NCBI GenBank assembly: GCA_041650915.1
Contig: JBAZKE010000002.1
Coordinates: forward strand, 16,638-80,637
Reading direction: 5' to 3'
DNA from: Patescibacteria group bacterium
GTDB lineage: Bacteria; Patescibacteriota; Patescibacteriia; UBA10025; JAHIVO01
Length of the DNA stretch: 64,000 nt
The translations under genes and the position numbers were made by a program. Of the stretch, positions 1,273-33,520 are shown piece by piece. Under the pieces are notes generated by a model. The model had not been told where the DNA came from. It was given only the letters and a program-made list of their open reading frames with translations, and did not search any database. Numbering within the stretch: position 1 is the stretch's first letter; every line of letters starts with the position of its first letter.

Positions 1273-2277
1273 TTGTTCTTGAAAAAGCCAGTAAAACCCT
1301 TCCCAATGGTTGAATTTTATCCACTATTTCAAAAAATAAAAGAAGAGGCGGTCAAAGCGCGCTCCGCCATTGTGATTTCCCACCAAAACCCGGACGGTGA
1401 CGCAATCGGATCACTTCTTGGAATGAGCTACTTTCTTGACCAAAACGAAGTAATGCACGAACTCTTCTGCGCATCGCCGATCCCGGAGTACCTCAAATTT
1501 CTGCCGAATGTCGAACGCATTACAAACAACGATGAAGTGCTGCTCACCAGAGAGTATGACCTCATCATTATCCTTGATTCGGGCGACCTCAAGTACGCCG
1601 GCGTTGATATGCACTTCAGGAGCATCAAGGGCTTGCCGATCGTCATCAACATCGACCACCACCCTACGAACACGCTGTTCGGGCATATCAACCTTGTCCA
1701 CTCCAAAGCTTCTTCGACTGCAGAGATTATCTTCCATCTGCTCGACCACTATCGGCATCCGATTACGAAAGAAGTTGCGACAAGCCTCCTCACCGGCATC
1801 CTTACCGATACCGGCGGCTTCGCGAACCTCGGCACGACCTCGTCTTCGCTTGAAGTCTCATCGCGCCTCGTCGCGCAGGGTGCACGGATCCGCGAGGTGA
1901 TCACAAACACCTTCCGCAATAAACCCCTCAAGCAGCTCCAGCTCTGGGGCCGCGCGCTCTCGCGGCTCAAGGAAGACCCCAAGACCGGCATCGTCACGAC
2001 GGTGCTCCTCAAAGGAGACTTCGAGGAACTCGGCATCGATGAAGAGAGCACCGAAGGAATCTCAAACTTCCTCAACAACGTCGAGCACGCAAAGGCGATT
2101 ATCGTGCTGCGTGAAAAAGCAGACGGCACCATCAAGGGCAGCCTTCGGACCACCCAGCCGGACGTCGATGTATCTGCCATCGCAAAATTTTTTGGCGGGG
2201 GCGGCCACAAGAAAGCGGCCGGATTTACCGTCAAGGGCAGAATCGTCCAGACAAACCTCGGTTGGAAAATAGAGTAA
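1273..2277 (+). CDS. DHH/DHHA1 phosphoesterase (NrnA-like oligoribonuclease/pAp phosphatase)
   Basis: It has the HQNPDGDAIGS, DHH (IDHHPTN) and GGGH (GGGGHKKAAGF) motifs. The true start may be the internal Met at 1306. Confidence 0.75.
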   Translation: MFLKKPVKPFPMVEFYPLFQKIKEEAVKARSAIVISHQNPDGDAIGSLLGMSYFLDQNEVMHELFCASPIPEYLKFLPNVERITNNDEVLLTREYDLIIILDSGDLKYAGVDMHFRSIKGLPIVINIDHHPTNTLFGHINLVHSKASSTAEIIFHLLDHYRHPITKEVATSLLTGILTDTGGFANLGTTSSSLEVSSRLVAQGARIREVITNTFRNKPLKQLQLWGRALSRLKEDPKTGIVTTVLLKGDFEELGIDEESTEGISNFLNNVEHAKAIIVLREKADGTIKGSLRTTQPDVDVSAIAKFFGGGGHKKAAGFTVKGRIVQTNLGWKIE

Positions 2278-2290
2278 AAAACGGACCCGC

Positions 2291-2322
2291 TTGACGAGCG
2301 CGGCCAGCTGTTTTAAAATACC
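2291..2322 (+). promoter_or_regulatory. Putative sigma70-like promoter (TTGACG-16-TTAAAAT) at the head of an ORF-free region
   Basis: Motif match only: TTGACGagcgcggccagctgttTTAAAAT. Confidence 0.3.
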
Positions 2323-2885
2323 CGAATCTCCCCTCTGTTCCTTGTTCCCATTCACCCCTGTACCTTGATGCTGCGCTGGGGAGACGCAACAATGCAGCAG
2401 TAAGGTCAAGATGGAGAAACACCAAAATGAGTGTTAATCTCACCCTGCGTCGTATGCCGTAACGCACTATGAACGGTATGAACTCTGCTGCGGTGCTACC
2501 GGACGCAGCAGGTGTACGGAGTATCGAATTGTTCCGCGCCGAACGAAGATGATCGGCAGACGTACCGCCTTGTGGTGACCCAACGGCCACAGTGGGGATT
2601 AAACGACGCAAGAATATAGCGTCCTATACGGCGGACACGTTGATCCTGTTGACGCGATGCGTCACCATGATTCCTACCGGATGCGGAGCACTGCGAAAAA
2701 CGTGCAGTAACCGCCCGTAGCAAAGGGTAACATTGTAGTGGTGCCTCCATTACGATACATCCAGTATCTCTTTGAATGATTCTTACCATGAGGGGGGAAC
2801 GCTCCCCTGAGGGGCAATTAGTCGCTGATGAAAGCGCAGGCGCAACCACGCCGGTAAGACGCTAGGCGCATGCCCAGCAAAAACG

Positions 2886-2938
2886 ATACCGCCAAGGCCC
2901 GTCACATTTTCAATTGTGAACCCAAGGCGGTATTTTTT
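2886..2938 (+). terminator. Rho-independent terminator-like hairpin plus U-tract
   Basis: ATACCGCC ... GGCGGTAT stem with an imperfect inner hairpin, followed by TTTTTTAT. Confidence 0.5.
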
Positions 2939-2964
2939 ATGGAAATACGTGAATTCATTACGGG

Positions 2965-2994
2965 TTGACAAGCATTGACACTATCAACTATACT
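2965..2994 (+). promoter_or_regulatory. Putative clpP promoter
   Basis: TTGACA, an 18-nt spacer and TATACT, about 30 nt upstream of the clpP start. Confidence 0.45.
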
Positions 2995-3023
2995 AGTAAC
3001 TACCTTTATTAAATAATTATAGT

Positions 3024-3602
3024 ATGTACCTCGTTCCAACGGTAGTTGAAAAATCAACACACGGCGAACGAGCCTACGATATATACTCTCGGCTACTTAA
3101 AGAGAGAATTATCTTCCTAGGCAATCCGATCGACGACACAGTAGCGAATACGGTCATCGCACAGCTACTGTTCTTAGAGTCTGTTGACAAGTCGAAAGAC
3201 ATCAAGCTCTACATCAACACCCCGGGCGGTTCGGTTACTGCCGGCTTAGCGATCTATGACACCATGCAGTACGTCAAACCGGACGTGACGACCATCTGCG
3301 TCGGGCTCGCAGGTTCGATGGGCGCAGTGCTCCTCGCGGCGGGCGCTAAAAAGAAGCGCTGTGCGCTCCCGAACTCCGAAATTCTCCTGCACCAGGTCAT
3401 GGGCGGAGCAGAGGGCCAAGCGGTAGACATTAAGATTAGAGCAGAGCACATCATCAAGATCAGAGATCGTATCAACCAGATACTCTCGGATCACACCGGA
3501 CAGTCGATCGACAGCATCAGCAGAGATACTGACCGTGACTTCTTCATGTCTGCCCCCGAGGCGAAGAAGTACGGCGTCGTGGATAAAATCATCCAGCAGT
3601 AG
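3024..3602 (+). CDS. clpP: ATP-dependent Clp protease proteolytic subunit
   Basis: [34 protein letters not shown] and the catalytic Ser region [14 protein letters not shown]. The homology is unmistakable. Confidence 0.9.
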
Positions 3603-18829: not shown

Positions 18830-19162
18830 GTGGACCACATGAATGCCGAAACCGTACCGCGTGTGCCCGGTTTGGAAGCACTGGGATTCGTATCCGATCT
18901 GCCCGTTGGAACAAATCGAGTTGAGGTAACACTGACGTGCGATCTCATGCTGCCCGCGACAATGTACTTCCGCATCAACCCAGCTGGCAATGAAGACACC
19001 GTCTTTTATGTCAGCTCGGTTAAACGCAAAGGCGTACTGGTCGACCGGGCCATGAAGGGTGACAAGGTCGCCGTTCGTATGATTGCGCCGCCGGACGCAT
19101 GCGTCGAAATCGGAACACCGGTCTACATCGGCCCCGAAATCGGCGTAGCCACCGACGTATAG
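18830..19162 (+). CDS. Hypothetical protein (110 aa)
   Basis: GTG start with a GGAGGG SD 5 nt upstream, and a TTGACA-17-TACCAT promoter-like motif about 80 nt upstream. No recognisable family. Confidence 0.35.
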   Translation: MDHMNAETVPRVPGLEALGFVSDLPVGTNRVEVTLTCDLMLPATMYFRINPAGNEDTVFYVSSVKRKGVLVDRAMKGDKVAVRMIAPPDACVEIGTPVYIGPEIGVATDV

Positions 19163-19390
19163 CATCCGCAGCGCTCATCGGCTGCCGAAGAGCAGCCCGA
19201 GCACGGCGAATAAGCATCCGGCGTAAAGTACGATACCGAGCGCAGTATGGTCACCAAATATGGTAACCTGCTGCGCTCATTTTTTACATCGCGATGCGTA
19301 AAAAAACTGCAACAGCGTGCAGTATTTACACAGGTTTGCGCACACAGCGATCCCATCCCTGCTAAGGTATCTTTACAGTATCGCCTTGGC

Positions 19391-19418
19391 TTGCTATTCT
19401 AGTATAGAAAGCTATGAT
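19391..19418 (+). promoter_or_regulatory. Putative pyr operon promoter
   Basis: TTGCTA-16-TATGAT. Confidence 0.3.
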
Positions 19419-19473
19419 TAATCCACAATTTTTCCAGCTCACATCACCCAATCAAACTGCGCGGTGACCTATT

Positions 19474-19495
19474 TCCCCAGAACGGGGATTTTTTT
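19474..19495 (+). terminator. Intrinsic terminator hairpin plus U7 in the pyrB leader (attenuator candidate)
   Basis: TCCCCAGAACGGGGATTTTTTT, 22 nt before the pyrB start codon. Confidence 0.45.
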
Positions 19496-19516
19496 AAATA
19501 ATTGAGCAAAAACCAC

Positions 19517-20434
19517 ATGGAGAGCTTCAAAAACCGAGATATCATCTCGATCCGTGACTTCTCAAAAAAAGAGATCTTGTACATCCTCGAGGTGGCAAAA
19601 AAATTCAAAAACAAGCCGCACGCCTCGCTCCTCAAAAATAAAATCCTCGCGAGCCTTTTCTTCGAGCCATCGACGAGAACCCGCTTCTCATTTGAATCGG
19701 CGATGGAGCGCCTGGGCGGTTCCGTAATTTCGCTCGCCGATGCGAAAGCGTCATCATCGGCAAAAGGCGAGTCGGTCTCCGACTCTATTAAAATCGTGGA
19801 AAAGTACTGTGACGTCGTCGTCATGCGCCACTCGCTCGAAGGCTCCGCCCGCCTCGCCGCTGAGGTGTCCCGGAATCCGATCATCAATGGCGGTGACGGC
19901 GCAAACCAGCACCCCACTCAGACATTCCTCGACCTCTTCACGATCATGGAGACCCAAAAAAAGCTTGGCGGCTTGAACGTTGCGATCGTCGGCGACCTCA
20001 AGTACGGCAGGACCACACACTCGCTCGCGTACGCCCTCGGCATGTTCGGAGCGAAGCTGCACTTCGTATCACCGACCGCACTAAGAATGCCGAAGTACGT
20101 CACGCACGAACTCAAAAAAATGAAGGCAAAGTACGCCGAACACAAGCATCCGGAGCAGATCATGCCGAAGCTCGACATCTTCTACGCCACGAGGATCCAG
20201 AAGGAACGCTTCCCCGACCAGCTCGAGTACGAAAAGGTGAAGGACGTATACGTGATTACAAATAAGCTCCTGACAAAGGTAAAAAAGAACTTCAAAATTA
20301 TGCATCCGCTGCCGCGCGTCAACGAAATCAACTACGAAGTAGATGAGACCCCGTATGCATACTACTTCGAGCAGGCGAACAACGGCCTGTACGTCCGTGA
20401 AGCACTCTTAGCATTAGTTTTAGGAAAAGCCTAG
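19517..20434 (+). CDS. pyrB: Aspartate carbamoyltransferase catalytic subunit
   Basis: STRTR and HPTQ motifs, followed by pyrI. Confidence 0.9.
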   Translation: MESFKNRDIISIRDFSKKEILYILEVAKKFKNKPHASLLKNKILASLFFEPSTRTRFSFESAMERLGGSVISLADAKASSSAKGESVSDSIKIVEKYCDVVVMRHSLEGSARLAAEVSRNPIINGGDGANQHPTQTFLDLFTIMETQKKLGGLNVAIVGDLKYGRTTHSLAYALGMFGAKLHFVSPTALRMPKYVTHELKKMKAKYAEHKHPEQIMPKLDIFYATRIQKERFPDQLEYEKVKDVYVITNKLLTKVKKNFKIMHPLPRVNEINYEVDETPYAYYFEQANNGLYVREALLALVLGKA

Positions 20435-31204: not shown

Positions 31205-31308
31205 TACCCGGTACTATGCAAACCACCCCATGAACCTTGACAGTCAATATCGTGGTAAGAAAGAACGTTAATTCCATTTTTTGTACGTTTTAGTAAAAAC
31301 GTACACTA

Positions 31309-32799
<1,491 letters not shown>

Positions 32800-33040
32800 T
32801 CAAGGAGAATCACGCCGGTATTTATGCCGGCGAGGTCGATGCGCGGCCTCTCGAAGGCCGTGCAACCGCAGGTACCAACCTGCAAAAAACGCAAATACTT
32901 AGCGTTCTCTTCTTACCACAATAGTGACTGCCAAGTTCAAGGAATACGACTACAGCTCGATGTTGTACCAAACGAACCGAATTGATTTTTTCGCTCACGT
33001 CTAGTACACTGATTCCGAAGGCTGTAGCTTTTTTTATTAA

Positions 33041-33117
33041 GGGCGATTAGCTCAGGTGGTTAGAGCGCGTCACTGATAATGACGAGGTCCCAGGTTCGAA
33101 TCCTGGATCGCCCACCA
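33041..33117 (+). tRNA. tRNA-Ile (anticodon GAU) with encoded CCA
   Basis: GGGCGAT-TA-GCTCAGGTGGTTAGAGC-G-CGTCA-CTGATAA-TGACG-AGGTC-CCAGG-TTCGAAT-CCTGG-ATCGCCC-A-CCA. Confidence 0.9.
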
Positions 33118-33139
33118 CCATTTCAATCAATACTCGCTA

Positions 33140-33520
33140 ATGCCGATGTTTCCGCCGAGGTAGCTCAGTGGTTGAGTCCCGTATTTATGCCGAGGAATAA
33201 TATGCCGAGGTAGCTCAGTGGTAGAGCGAAGGACTGAAAATCCTTGCGTCGCCAGTCCGATTCTGGCCCTCGGCATAAATACGGGATAAACTCCGGACTG
33301 CATCGATGTGAAGAAAATCCTGGAGCCTGTCCCGCACACTGAACACAGTGAAGTGTTGCGGGATCTATCAGTCCGATTCTGGCCCTCGGCATGAGTGCGA
33401 TATTAATGAGCACTGAAAATCCTGGAGCCTGTCCTGAACATGTAGCGCAGCGAAATGGTTCAGGATCGCCAGTTCCCCCGGACTAGATCCGATTCTGACC
33501 CTCGGCATAAGCGAGAAATT
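33140..33520 (+). repeat. Array of degenerate tRNA-derived repeats
   Basis: The motif CAGTCCGATTCTGGCCCTCGGCAT occurs 3 times and (A)CTGAAAATCCT(GGAGCCTGTCC) occurs 3 times. The 5' tRNA segment GCCGAGGTAGCTCAGTGGT is duplicated, and a ~20-bp inverted repeat (CCCGTATTTATGCCGAGG / CCTCGGCATAAATACGGG) brackets the intact tRNA. Confidence 0.6.
33204..33275 (+). tRNA. tRNA-Phe-like (anticodon GAA) with an atypical T-loop (TCCGATT, C at position 55)
   Basis: GCCGAGG-TA-GCTC-AGTGGTA-GAGC-G-AAGGA-CTGAAAA-TCCTT-GCGTC-GCCAG-TCCGATT-CTGGC-CCTCGGC-A. It folds as a cloverleaf but lacks the canonical T54-Psi55. Confidence 0.5.

What the first reader, a model, noticed from the sequence alone, without database searches (positions are those of the whole stretch)
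2291..2960. About 650-nt ORF-free, promoter- and terminator-bounded region between the DHH phosphoesterase and clpP: candidate large structured ncRNA
In an otherwise tightly packed genome this stretch has no plus-strand ORF of 60 aa or more. The three minus-strand ORFs are compositionally implausible and overlap each other. The region keeps genome-average GC and is rich in self-complementary segments. It begins after a TTGACG-16-TTAAAAT promoter-like motif and ends in a terminator-like hairpin plus U-run, immediately before a separate clpP promoter. I looked for RNase P P4 strands, a tmRNA tRNA-like domain and a tmRNA tag reading frame and found none, so it is not an obvious known housekeeping RNA. 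It may be a large ncRNA or a decayed gene.
Basis: seen in the sequence. Interest (0 to 1): 0.55.

Follow-up and report, generated by a model that had tools for sequence, protein, structure and literature searches.

The report
Accessory structured RNA gene upstream of clpP
The roughly 650-base gene-free stretch between nrnA and clpP in this Patescibacteria genome most likely encodes a lineage-restricted, dispensable structured non-coding RNA of unknown function, sitting in a hypervariable slot that holds unrelated cargo in its closest relatives.

Summary
Window 2278-3023 has no credible ORF, genome-average GC, a sigma-70-like promoter (2291-2319) and a strong intrinsic terminator (2885-2940), followed by a separate clpP promoter. 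It matches no Rfam family, tRNA or tmRNA. It gives no protein hit in any frame, and no frame shows the host's codon usage.

The plus strand folds better than shuffles (z -3.6). That matches a 16S fragment and beats 23 of 25 background windows.

The element is not conserved at the syntenic site. The nrnA-clpP gap is a hot spot: 41-340 nt in most relatives, and unrelated ORFan cargo in others. The closest relative found (NrnA 89% identical) has unrelated cargo there.

One more distant lineage (L083/L094, NrnA 73%) does carry a homolog. A covariance model built from the window alone hits it at E 9e-7. Hairpins are kept through compensatory changes and G-U pairs that form only on the clpP-sense strand.

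My verdict is a probable new, narrowly distributed, accessory structured ncRNA of about 610 nt, function unknown. With only two lineages, covariation is suggestive rather than proven. A decaying cargo remnant remains the main rival. Interest is moderate.

The parts
1273..2277 (+). Upstream flank: nrnA (DHH/DHHA1 phosphoesterase), last gene of the infB-rbfA-nrnA block
   Evidence: Pfam DHH 9e-19 and DHHA1 2e-11. Synteny is conserved in about 30 Patescibacteria loci.
2291..2319 (+). Sigma-70-like promoter TTGACG-17-TAAAAT, with a predicted start near 2326
   Evidence: Promoter scan, 10 of 12 matches. Not above chance on its own. The L094 homolog has TTGGCA-17-TAACAT about 65 nt upstream of the homologous core.
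2326..2940 (+). Predicted non-coding transcript of about 610 nt
   Evidence: Bounded by the promoter and terminator. z -3.6 on plus against -2.2 on minus. No coding signal. No Rfam match.
2362..2406 (+). 5' hairpin H1 (ACCUUG.UGCUGCG / UGCAGCA.UAAGGU)
   Evidence: Pair probabilities 0.94-0.98. No homolog found, so it rests on prediction alone.
2427..2462 (+). 11-codon mini-ORF (MSVNLTLRRMP) behind a GGAG; not conserved as a peptide
   Evidence: L094 has ATG at the aligned position but reads MSVKSSYVSLIA, because a 1-nt indel shifts the frame while the nucleotides stay similar (alignment; sequences). Conservation is therefore at the nucleotide level.
2414..2600 (+). 5' core homologous to L094 7094-6909 (minus strand, which is the clpP-sense strand there)
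   Evidence: nhmmer --max E 1.7e-3 in a 15-kb search space. The consensus fold has 31 pairs, 7 of them with changes on both sides, against 0-2 in slid controls.
2437..2441 (+). 5' strand of the domain-closing helix AUCUC (pairs with 2595-2599)
   Evidence: Helix 1: 4 invariant pairs plus one C-G to U-G change.
2485..2511 (+). Hairpin H2, CUGCUGCG-loop-CGCAGCAG
   Evidence: Probability 0.85. L094 has CUGCUAUG / CGUAGCAG: one compensatory G-C to A-U and one C-G to U-G.
2571..2591 (+). Hairpin H5, UGUGG-UGACCCAACGG-CCACA, loop containing ACC(C)AA
   Evidence: L094 has UGCGGC-UACCAAUAA-GCUGCA at the aligned position: one compensatory and two one-sided changes.
2595..2599 (+). 3' strand of the domain-closing helix, GGGAU
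2791..2808 (+). 3'-module hairpin P1, AGGGGGG-AACG-CUCCCCU
   Evidence: L094 copy c1 has AGAGGGC-UUUC-GUCCUCU. All 7 pairs are kept, 2 of them by changes on both sides, and a G-U is kept in both. Aligned by the covariance model.
2817..2829 (+). Conserved single-stranded motif AUUAGUC(G/A)CUGAU
   Evidence: Found only in the window's own contig and L094 among 95 loci.
2839..2852 (+). 3'-module hairpin P2, GGCG-CAACCA-CGCC
   Evidence: L094 c1 has UAGC-AGAAAU-GCUA and c2 has UAGCG-AAA-CGCUA at the anchored position. All 4 pairs change on both sides and remain Watson-Crick.
2855..2874 (+). Conserved UAAG.CGCUAGG followed by hairpin P3, GGC-GCAU-GCC
   Evidence: The first P3 pair reads G-C in the window, G-U in c1 and A-U in c2. 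The third pair reads C-G in the window and U-G in c1 and c2. The G-U pairs would be A-C mismatches on the opposite strand.
2885..2940 (+). Intrinsic terminator: 9-bp outer stem, inner 5-bp stem, then U6
   Evidence: Pair probability 0.98. Best local alignment to L094 copy c3 scores 51 against a null of 27 +/- 3.6.
2965..2994 (+). Downstream flank: the clpP promoter TTGACA-18-TATACT (clpP ATG at 3024)
   Evidence: It is the only part of the gap conserved with L081. clpP Pfam 4e-83.

Best explanation
Window 2326-2940 is most likely an independently transcribed, non-coding, structured RNA gene of about 610 nt on the plus strand.

Shown:
- It lies in a gene-free cassette between the nrnA stop and the clpP promoter.
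- The cassette has a sigma-70-like promoter and a strong intrinsic terminator.
- The sequence is non-coding by every test available.
- It folds more stably than shuffled controls, and more so on the clpP-sense strand.
- Two parts have a homolog in one other Patescibacteria lineage: a 5' core (2414-2600, closed by an AUCUC/GGGAU helix) and a 3' module (2786-2880, three short hairpins and two conserved single-stranded motifs, followed by the terminator hairpin at 2885-2940).
- In that homolog the hairpins are kept through compensatory and G-U changes.

Inferred:
- The RNA is accessory, not housekeeping, because the closest relative has replaced the whole cassette with unrelated genes.
- The 3' module behaves as a portable 3'-end unit. 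In the other lineage three diverged copies end three successive units: two ORF-free and one a lipoprotein gene.
- The most likely working role of the 3' module is to stabilise and terminate the transcript and to insulate the clpP promoter from upstream read-through. Recombination between such copies would also explain how cassettes are swapped at this hot spot.
- The function of the 5' core is unknown. A trans-acting or protein-binding RNA is the default guess.
For: Non-coding:
- No Pfam hit on the minus-strand ORFs.
- No hit for a six-frame concatenate against 5.8 billion proteins at E<=10.
- No hit for the low-stop minus frame.
- No hit in a full HMMER scan of 1.84 billion representatives.
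- Codon-usage log-odds reach at most -0.08 in any frame, against +0.43 +/- 0.18 for real genes.

Transcription unit: promoter and terminator.

Structure:
- z -3.6 on plus against -2.2 on minus; background mean -0.97.
- Homologous part: -4.1 sense against -3.0 antisense in the window, and -2.6 against -0.3 in L094.

Homology:
- nhmmer 1.2e-4 for the 3' module and 1.7e-3 for the 5' core.
- A covariance model built from the window alone hits L094 at 35.9 bits, E 8.8e-7.

Compensation:
- P1 has 2 of 7 pairs changed on both sides, P2 4 of 4, and P3 shows the series G-C, G-U, A-U.
- The 5' core has 7 of 31 pairs changed on both sides, against 0-2 in slid controls.

Not a coding signal on either strand:
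- The antisense ORFs of the two lineages share no protein similarity.
- Mismatches are not 3-periodic.
- The mini-ORF is frame-shifted between the lineages.

An independent assembly is identical.
Against: - Only two lineages carry the element, so covariation cannot be tested statistically. The structure tested was derived from the same alignment.
- The element is absent from the closest relative L081 (NrnA 89%, clpP first 90 nt identical) and from every other syntenic locus.
- Global identity to the L094 unit is only 44%, and window 2326-2414 and 2600-2786 have no detectable homolog.
- The promoter match is not above chance, and there is no expression data.
- Three of the 25 background windows reach a similar or lower z.
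- One minus-strand frame has only 3 stops in 247 codons.
Confidence: 0.5

Rival explanations
1. The region is a decaying remnant of an accessory ORFan cargo gene, probably on the minus strand. It would be left in a recombination hot spot, with only the terminator still useful.
For: - The nrnA-clpP gap holds unrelated, mostly Pfam-less cargo genes in L003, L004, L006, L010, L029, L081, L086 and L094.
- In L081 the cargo appears to read on the minus strand.
- Minus frame 1 of the window has only 3 stops between 2971 and 2231, where I estimate about 11 from base composition (one search counts; my calculation, roughly P 0.005 per frame).
- ORFans would give no database hits even if once coding.
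Against: - No residual codon bias in any frame.
- No hit in 1.84 and 5.8 billion-protein searches.
- The homologous L094 stretch also has a low-stop antisense frame, but the two translations share no similarity and substitutions are not 3-periodic.
- Hairpins are preserved by compensatory changes, and G-U pairs fit only the plus strand.
- At NrnA 73% identity, neutral DNA would not be expected to remain alignable (my inference).
Confidence: 0.27
2. The region is not a separate gene but a long structured 3' UTR and terminator region of the infB-rbfA-nrnA operon. It would act in cis to end that operon and shield the clpP promoter.
For: - There is no strong terminator between the nrnA stop (2277) and the hairpin at 2885-2940. 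The only hairpin there is weak and overlaps the -35 box.
- In L094 the same 3' module (copy c1) lies directly behind a protein-coding gene, as a 3' UTR plus terminator.
- The promoter match is not statistically exceptional.
Against: - Relatives end nrnA with a compact terminator and a gap of 41-340 nt, so 600 nt is not needed for that job.
- The L094 homolog of the 5' core sits in a unit separated from nrnA by two terminators.
- A promoter-like site lies upstream of the homologous core in both lineages: about 95 nt upstream in the window and about 65-70 nt in L094.
Confidence: 0.15
3. The region is a diverged copy of a known housekeeping or catalogued RNA: RNase P RNA, tmRNA, 6S, SRP, group I or II intron, OLE, GOLLD, ROOL, HEARO or raiA.
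For: Its size and structural richness resemble large bacterial ncRNAs. CPR genomes often carry atypical RNAs (general knowledge).
Against: - No Rfam 15 model reaches even E<=10, apart from three chance-level matches to eukaryotic and viral families.
- ARAGORN finds no tmRNA.
- Absence from the closest relative is incompatible with an essential RNA.
- The homologous L094 and L083 loci also give no Rfam hit at E<=1.
Confidence: 0.03

Closest known systems
Large bacterial ncRNAs of unknown function (OLE, GOLLD, ROOL, HEARO, raiA; Rfam)
   Same: It is several hundred nucleotides long and multi-hairpin. It has its own promoter and terminator, a patchy phylogenetic distribution, and sits in accessory or variable genome regions.
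   Different: It has no sequence or structure match to any of them. It is known from only two lineages. It shows none of the extensive conserved cores that define those families, and global identity between the two members is 44%.
Second ORF-free unit at the same locus in relatives ('family B': L084, L085, L086, L098)
   Same: It occupies the same nrnA-clpP gap and has the same architecture: TTGACA promoter, an ORF-free body of about 380 nt and a strong terminator. It has the same orientation and no Rfam match.
   Different: The sequence and structure are unrelated. The family-B covariance model R1 finds nothing in the window, and nhmmer finds no cross-hits. Family B is far more conserved, at 78-82% identity.
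Integron gene cassettes with attC sites, and CALIN arrays
   Same: It is a hot spot where unrelated cassettes are inserted in one orientation. In L083/L094 each unit ends with a diverged copy of a structured, imperfectly palindromic module.
   Different: No RYYYAAC / GTTRRRY core sites are visible at the module ends (read directly from the sequences). No integrase is seen in the fetched flanks. The cassettes carry their own promoters, and the modules end in U-runs like ordinary intrinsic terminators.
Rho-independent terminators with structured 3' UTR elements, and 3'-UTR-derived sRNAs
   Same: The conserved 3' module sits immediately upstream of a terminator. In L094 it also follows a protein-coding gene.
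   Different: In the window it ends an ORF-free transcript of about 470 nt rather than an mRNA. Processing into an sRNA has not been tested.

Membership tests
Any Rfam 15 family (including RNase P, tmRNA, 6S, SRP, OLE, GOLLD, ROOL, HEARO, raiA, group I/II introns, riboswitches) | Covariance-model score at or above the family's gathering threshold | tested here: not met
   There is no hit in 2150-3100 at gathering score. At E<=10 there are only three chance matches of 12-19 bits against thresholds of 50-60.
tmRNA | tRNA-like domain plus a tag reading frame | tested here: not met
   ARAGORN finds 0 genes in 2000-3200.
Protein-coding gene or recent pseudogene | Similarity of some reading frame to a known protein | tested here: not met
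   Searches gave no hit at E<=10 or E<=0.001. The word-index searches are insensitive below roughly 60% identity, but the full HMMER scan covered the longest open stretch.
Protein-coding gene or recent pseudogene | Host-like codon usage, or 3-periodic substitution between homologs | tested here: not met
   The maximum log-odds is -0.08, against a coding 5th percentile of +0.16. Mismatch rates by phase are 0.47, 0.58 and 0.53, lowest at the would-be third position. The antisense ORFs share no similarity.
Conserved structured ncRNA (generic criterion) | Homologs in other genomes | tested here: met
   One other lineage only: L094 5184-5282 at 35.9 bits, E 8.8e-7, and L094 7094-6909 at E 1.7e-3. 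It is absent from L081 and all other loci.
Conserved structured ncRNA (generic criterion) | Statistically significant covariation (R-scape-type test on many sequences) | tested here: inconclusive
   Compensatory changes are seen in P1, P2, P3, H2 and H5. Only 2 lineages (4 module copies) exist, so there is too little power.
Conserved structured ncRNA (generic criterion) | A discrete transcript | not testable with these tools
   No expression data are available. Only promoter and terminator predictions exist.
Family B (nrnA-clpP gap RNA of L084, L085, L086, L098) | Match to covariance model R1 of its conserved 163-nt core | tested here: not met
   There is no hit in the whole window with default filters. 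With filters off the best score is 6 bits.
Integron attC / cassette array | R'' (RYYYAAC) and R' (GTTRRRY) core sites flanking an imperfect palindrome, with an IntI integrase nearby | tested here: not met
   The core sites are not present at the ends of the window module or of L094 c1-c3 on direct reading. No integrase is among the called genes of the loci. No dedicated attC model was run.
Dispersed intergenic repeat (REP/BIME/MITE-like) | Multiple copies elsewhere in the same genome | tested here: not met
   blastn of the region against the 64-kb window finds only itself. Model R2 finds one copy in the window. Only 64 kb of the genome was available.

The most novel reading that the evidence does not exclude
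The nrnA-clpP gap of this Patescibacteria clade may be a dedicated cassette site for accessory RNA genes. Several unrelated ORF-free, promoter- and terminator-bounded units would be gained, lost and shuffled there by recombination at a portable structured 3' module: family A here, family B in four relatives, and further units in L086, L093/L102 and L002. On this reading the window's roughly 610-nt RNA is a functional member of a new class of large accessory ncRNAs in ultra-small symbiotic bacteria. Its role might lie in host interaction or phage defence, but nothing here tests that.
Probability: 0.15. Interest if true: 0.65.

Novelty: new member of a known kind. Interest (0 to 1): 0.4.

Why it matters
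CPR/Patescibacteria genomes are small and tightly packed, so 600 nt kept free of genes is a cost that needs explaining. Very few non-housekeeping RNAs are catalogued for this group in the sources I could search. Rfam 15 matches none of the ORF-free units examined here, and three full-text searches found no relevant paper.

If this element is a real RNA gene, it and the neighbouring family B show that these reduced genomes carry accessory structured RNAs. These RNAs turn over as fast as accessory protein genes, and at one definable hot spot next to the core protease and RNase genes clpP and rny. That would give a concrete, searchable locus for discovering CPR ncRNAs.

If it is only a decaying remnant, it is an ordinary by-product of cassette turnover.

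Tried and rejected
- **Rfam.** Gathering and permissive searches on the window and on 18 related loci found no relevant family.
- **ARAGORN.** No tRNA or tmRNA.
- **blastx-type searches.** A six-frame concatenate, the low-stop minus frame and a full HMMER scan of the 130-aa open stretch were all empty.
- **Syntenic conservation.** blastn and nhmmer of the region against 80 NrnA-anchored genome loci, plus further loci from protein look-ups, found nothing.
- **Phage and plasmid collections.** No match.
- **Viral contig scans.** Four motifs were tried. The three matches found were all chance-level.
- **Relation to family B.** Rejected by covariance model and nhmmer.
- **Internal or terminal repeats suggesting a MITE or TIGR/CRISPR-like array.** Only short two-copy chance-level repeats.
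- **Antiterminator idea.** Window 2563-2572 is perfectly complementary to the 3' arm of the terminator (I1). No equivalent exists in L094, so I treat it as chance.
- **Literature.** Three full-text searches found no paper describing such an RNA in Patescibacteria.
- **Metagenome scan.** The clpP-anchored scan did not return the window's own contig, so that collection is incomplete for this organism.

Full report
**Observation.** Window 2278-3023 lies between the stop of a DHH/DHHA1 phosphoesterase gene (nrnA, 1273-2277) and the ATG of clpP (3024); Pfam confirms both genes.
- The longest plus-strand ORFs inside are 35, 42 and 32 aa. Three overlapping minus-strand ORFs of 126, 117 and 62 aa exist as described.
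- GC is 0.49-0.54, like the neighbourhood.
- The consensus scan finds TTGACG-17-TAAAAT at 2291-2319 and a separate TTGACA-18-TATACT at 2965-2994.
- The terminator is a 9-bp outer helix (2885-2893 / 2926-2934, pair probability 0.98) with an inner 5-bp helix and a U6 tail. The simple scanner missed it only because of its loop limit.
- An independent Logan assembly from another run is 100% identical over 4971 nt.

The description is correct.

**Is it more structured than chance?**
- With 100 dinucleotide shuffles, the 621-nt plus strand has z = -3.6 and the minus strand z = -2.2.
- Twenty-five other 621-nt windows of the same 64 kb average -0.97 (sd 1.7). Only three reach -2.9 or lower, and a 16S rRNA fragment gives -3.3.

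The signal is real but not unique.

**Is it a known RNA?** No. No Rfam 15 family reaches its gathering score in the window apart from 16S and seven tRNAs. A permissive search of 2150-3100 gives only three chance-level matches. ARAGORN finds nothing.

**Is it a gene or pseudogene?**
- Pfam finds nothing in the minus-strand ORFs.
- A concatenate of all open segments from the six frames found nothing at E<=10 among 5.8 billion proteins. That search is only sensitive to fairly close relatives.
- One minus frame carries only 3 stops between 2971 and 2231, so I tested it separately. It gave no hit.
- A full HMMER scan of 1.84 billion cluster representatives with its 130-aa open stretch gave none at E<=0.001.
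- A codon-usage log-odds score trained on 35 long ORFs of the window separates real frames (+0.43 +/- 0.18) from other frames (-0.62 +/- 0.47). In the target no frame exceeds -0.08 in any 150-nt window.

**Organism and synteny.** NrnA homologs place the window in Patescibacteria (CPR). The source contig is ena:ERZ27247363:k141_1619091, 229 kb.
- The order infB-rbfA-nrnA-clpP-rny is conserved in about 30 fetched loci.
- The nrnA-clpP gap is hypervariable. It is 41-340 nt in most loci.
- It holds unrelated and mostly Pfam-less cargo in L003, L004, L006, L010, L029, L081, L086 and L094.
- Several assemblies break inside it: L002, L083, L085 and L098.
- The closest relative found, L081 (NrnA 89% identical, first 90 nt of clpP identical), has a 1348-nt AT-rich gap with unrelated ORFs. 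Only the clpP promoter aligns with the window.

The element is therefore not conserved at its syntenic site and cannot be essential.

**A homolog in a second lineage.** I spent the single metagenome scan on a degenerate pattern from the 5' end of clpP, which collects relatives regardless of what the gap contains.
- One hit, L094 (SDBT01008199.1; ClpP 87% and RNase Y 80.5% identical), overlaps the end of L083 (NrnA 73%). Together they give a complete gap for that lineage.
- Upstream of its clpP lies a stretch homologous to window 2786-2880. nhmmer gives E 1.2e-4. A covariance model built from the window alone, with three hand-defined hairpins, hits L094 5184-5282 at 35.9 bits, E 8.8e-7.
- The model finds nothing else in the window or in 43 other loci.
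- Reading the two sequences side by side (checked):

| Hairpin | Window | L094 c1 | L094 c2 | Change |
|---|---|---|---|---|
| P1 | AGGGGGG/CUCCCCU | AGAGGGC/GUCCUCU | no counterpart identified | 7 of 7 pairs kept, 2 by double changes, a G-U kept in both |
| P2 | GGCG/CGCC | UAGC/GCUA | UAGCG/CGCUA | 4 of 4 pairs changed on both sides |
| P3, first pair | G-C | G-U | A-U | stepwise series |
| P3, third pair | C-G | U-G | U-G | one-sided change |

- The hairpins are anchored by conserved unpaired motifs, AUUAGUC(R)CUGAU and UAAG.CGCUAGG. The first of these occurs only in these two lineages among 95 loci.
- The G-U pairs would be A-C mismatches on the other strand, so the RNA reads in the clpP direction.

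**The 5' core.** nhmmer in maximum-sensitivity mode aligns window 2414-2600 with L094 7094-6909, on the clpP-sense strand, at E 1.7e-3 in a 15-kb search.
- The consensus fold of this pair has 31 pairs, all standard in both sequences. Seven changed on both sides, against 0-2 when partners are slid by 1-3 columns.
- The convincing helices are:
  - H2: 2485-2511, one G-C to A-U and one C-G to U-G.
  - H5: 2571-2591, one compensatory and two one-sided changes, with a shared ACC(C)AA loop.
  - A domain-closing AUCUC/GGGAU helix: 2437-2441 with 2595-2599.
- The structure was derived from the same two sequences, so this supports the RNA reading but does not prove it.
- The L094 unit is more stable than shuffles on the sense strand only (z -2.6 against -0.3). 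The window's homologous part gives -4.1 against -3.0.
- A promoter-like site (TTGGCA-17-TAACAT) sits about 65 nt upstream of the L094 core. In the window the equivalent distance is about 95 nt.

**Coding rivals tested on the pair.**
- Both lineages have a low-stop antisense frame. Their translations share no similarity at E<=100.
- Mismatch rates by phase are 0.47, 0.58 and 0.53, lowest at the would-be third codon position.
- A small plus-strand ORF behind a GGAG (2427-2462) starts at an aligned ATG in both lineages. A 1-nt indel shifts the frame while the nucleotides stay similar.

What is conserved is nucleotide sequence and pairing, not a peptide.

**Architecture in the other lineage.** L083/L094 reads as follows:
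1. nrnA, then a compact terminator.
2. An ORF-free unit of about 385 nt, ending in module copy c3. This copy is the most similar to the window's terminator (local score 51 against a null of 27 +/- 3.6).
3. A short stretch with a possible small ORF.
4. The family-A homolog, ending in copy c2.
5. A PEGA-domain lipoprotein gene, followed by copy c1.
6. The clpP promoter.

The window element is therefore a mosaic relative of these units. The 3' module behaves as a portable transcript end.

**What it most likely is.** The best-supported reading is an accessory, lineage-restricted, structured non-coding RNA gene of about 610 nt.
- Shown: its non-coding nature, its bounded architecture, its excess strand-specific structure, and its partial homology with hairpin-preserving substitutions in one other lineage.
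- Inferred: that it is transcribed from its own promoter, that the 3' module stabilises and terminates the transcript and insulates clpP, and that recombination between module copies drives cassette turnover.
- Unknown: the function of the 5' core.
- Against: two lineages only, 44% global identity, about 270 nt with no homolog, loss in the closest relative, and no expression data.

I put this reading at about 0.5. A decaying cargo remnant gets about 0.27, a long nrnA 3' UTR or insulator about 0.15, and a diverged known RNA about 0.03.

**Comparison with known systems.**
- It works like the large bacterial ncRNAs of unknown function, but it fails membership of every Rfam family.
- The locus resembles a cassette array. 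It lacks integron core sites and an integrase, and its modules look like ordinary terminators.
- It is unrelated to the second ORF-free unit (family B) that occupies the same gap in four relatives.

**Verdict.** The finding is real and is probably a new, narrowly distributed ncRNA. It is not a housekeeping RNA and not a recognisable pseudogene. Interest is moderate (0.4). The wider pattern of ORF-free transcription units accumulating at the nrnA-clpP hot spot in Patescibacteria is the part most worth following up.

Noticed in passing
L084:1811-2216, L086:6578-6990, L085:5030-5427, L098:~2830-3240: A second, unrelated ORF-free unit ('family B', about 380 nt) occupies the same nrnA-clpP gap in four relatives (NrnA 71-74% identical to the window). 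It has a TTGACA-17-TATACT promoter, a 163-nt core at 78-82% identity and an invariant terminator, CCGTTCCCAT..GGGAACGG. It has no Rfam or tmRNA hit. Three base pairs show compensatory changes. It carries a 15-codon mini-ORF of conserved length.
   Followed up: partly
L083:4972-5444 joined to L094:7613-5047 (minus strand): The gap of this lineage holds three diverged direct copies of a terminator module: c3 at 7556-7440, c2 at 6782-6664 and c1 at 5285-5140. They flank an ORF-free unit and a PEGA-domain lipoprotein gene, in a cassette-array-like layout.
   Followed up: partly
L086:7028-7360; L093:257-800 (minus strand), identical to L102:6400-6974; L002:4900-5522: Further ORF-free stretches lie in the same gap of other relatives. 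Most are bounded by a promoter and a terminator. None resembles family A or B, and none has an Rfam hit.
   Followed up: no
window 3024-3113 compared with L081 7588-7677: The first 90 nt of clpP are identical between the window and L081, although NrnA is only 89% identical at protein level and the gap content is unrelated. This suggests strong constraint or recent recombination at the right edge of the hot spot.
   Followed up: no
window 19100-19720 (intergenic stretch about 19166-19501): This is the strongest folding outlier of the 25 background windows (z -6.85). It contains a roughly 335-nt gap between divergent ORFs, with several hairpins and T- and A-runs. It has no Rfam hit and no repeats.
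   Followed up: partly
window 31306-33275: The 16S rRNA gene is followed by two tRNAs, but no 23S or 5S rRNA match occurs anywhere in the 64-kb window. The rRNA operon appears to be split.
   Followed up: no
L002, L083, L085, L098 (contig ends): Four independent assemblies end 470-660 nt after nrnA, inside the gap. This fits strain-level heterogeneity at this hot spot.
   Followed up: no
window 2328-2335 with 2790-2797, against the local P1 hairpin 2791-2808: The G-run of P1 can pair either locally or with the C/U-rich 5' end of the transcript (8 bp, probability 0.73 in the single-sequence fold). L094 c1 also has an upstream partner for its G-run (GCUCUC, 12 nt upstream). This may be an alternative-pairing switch.
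   Followed up: no
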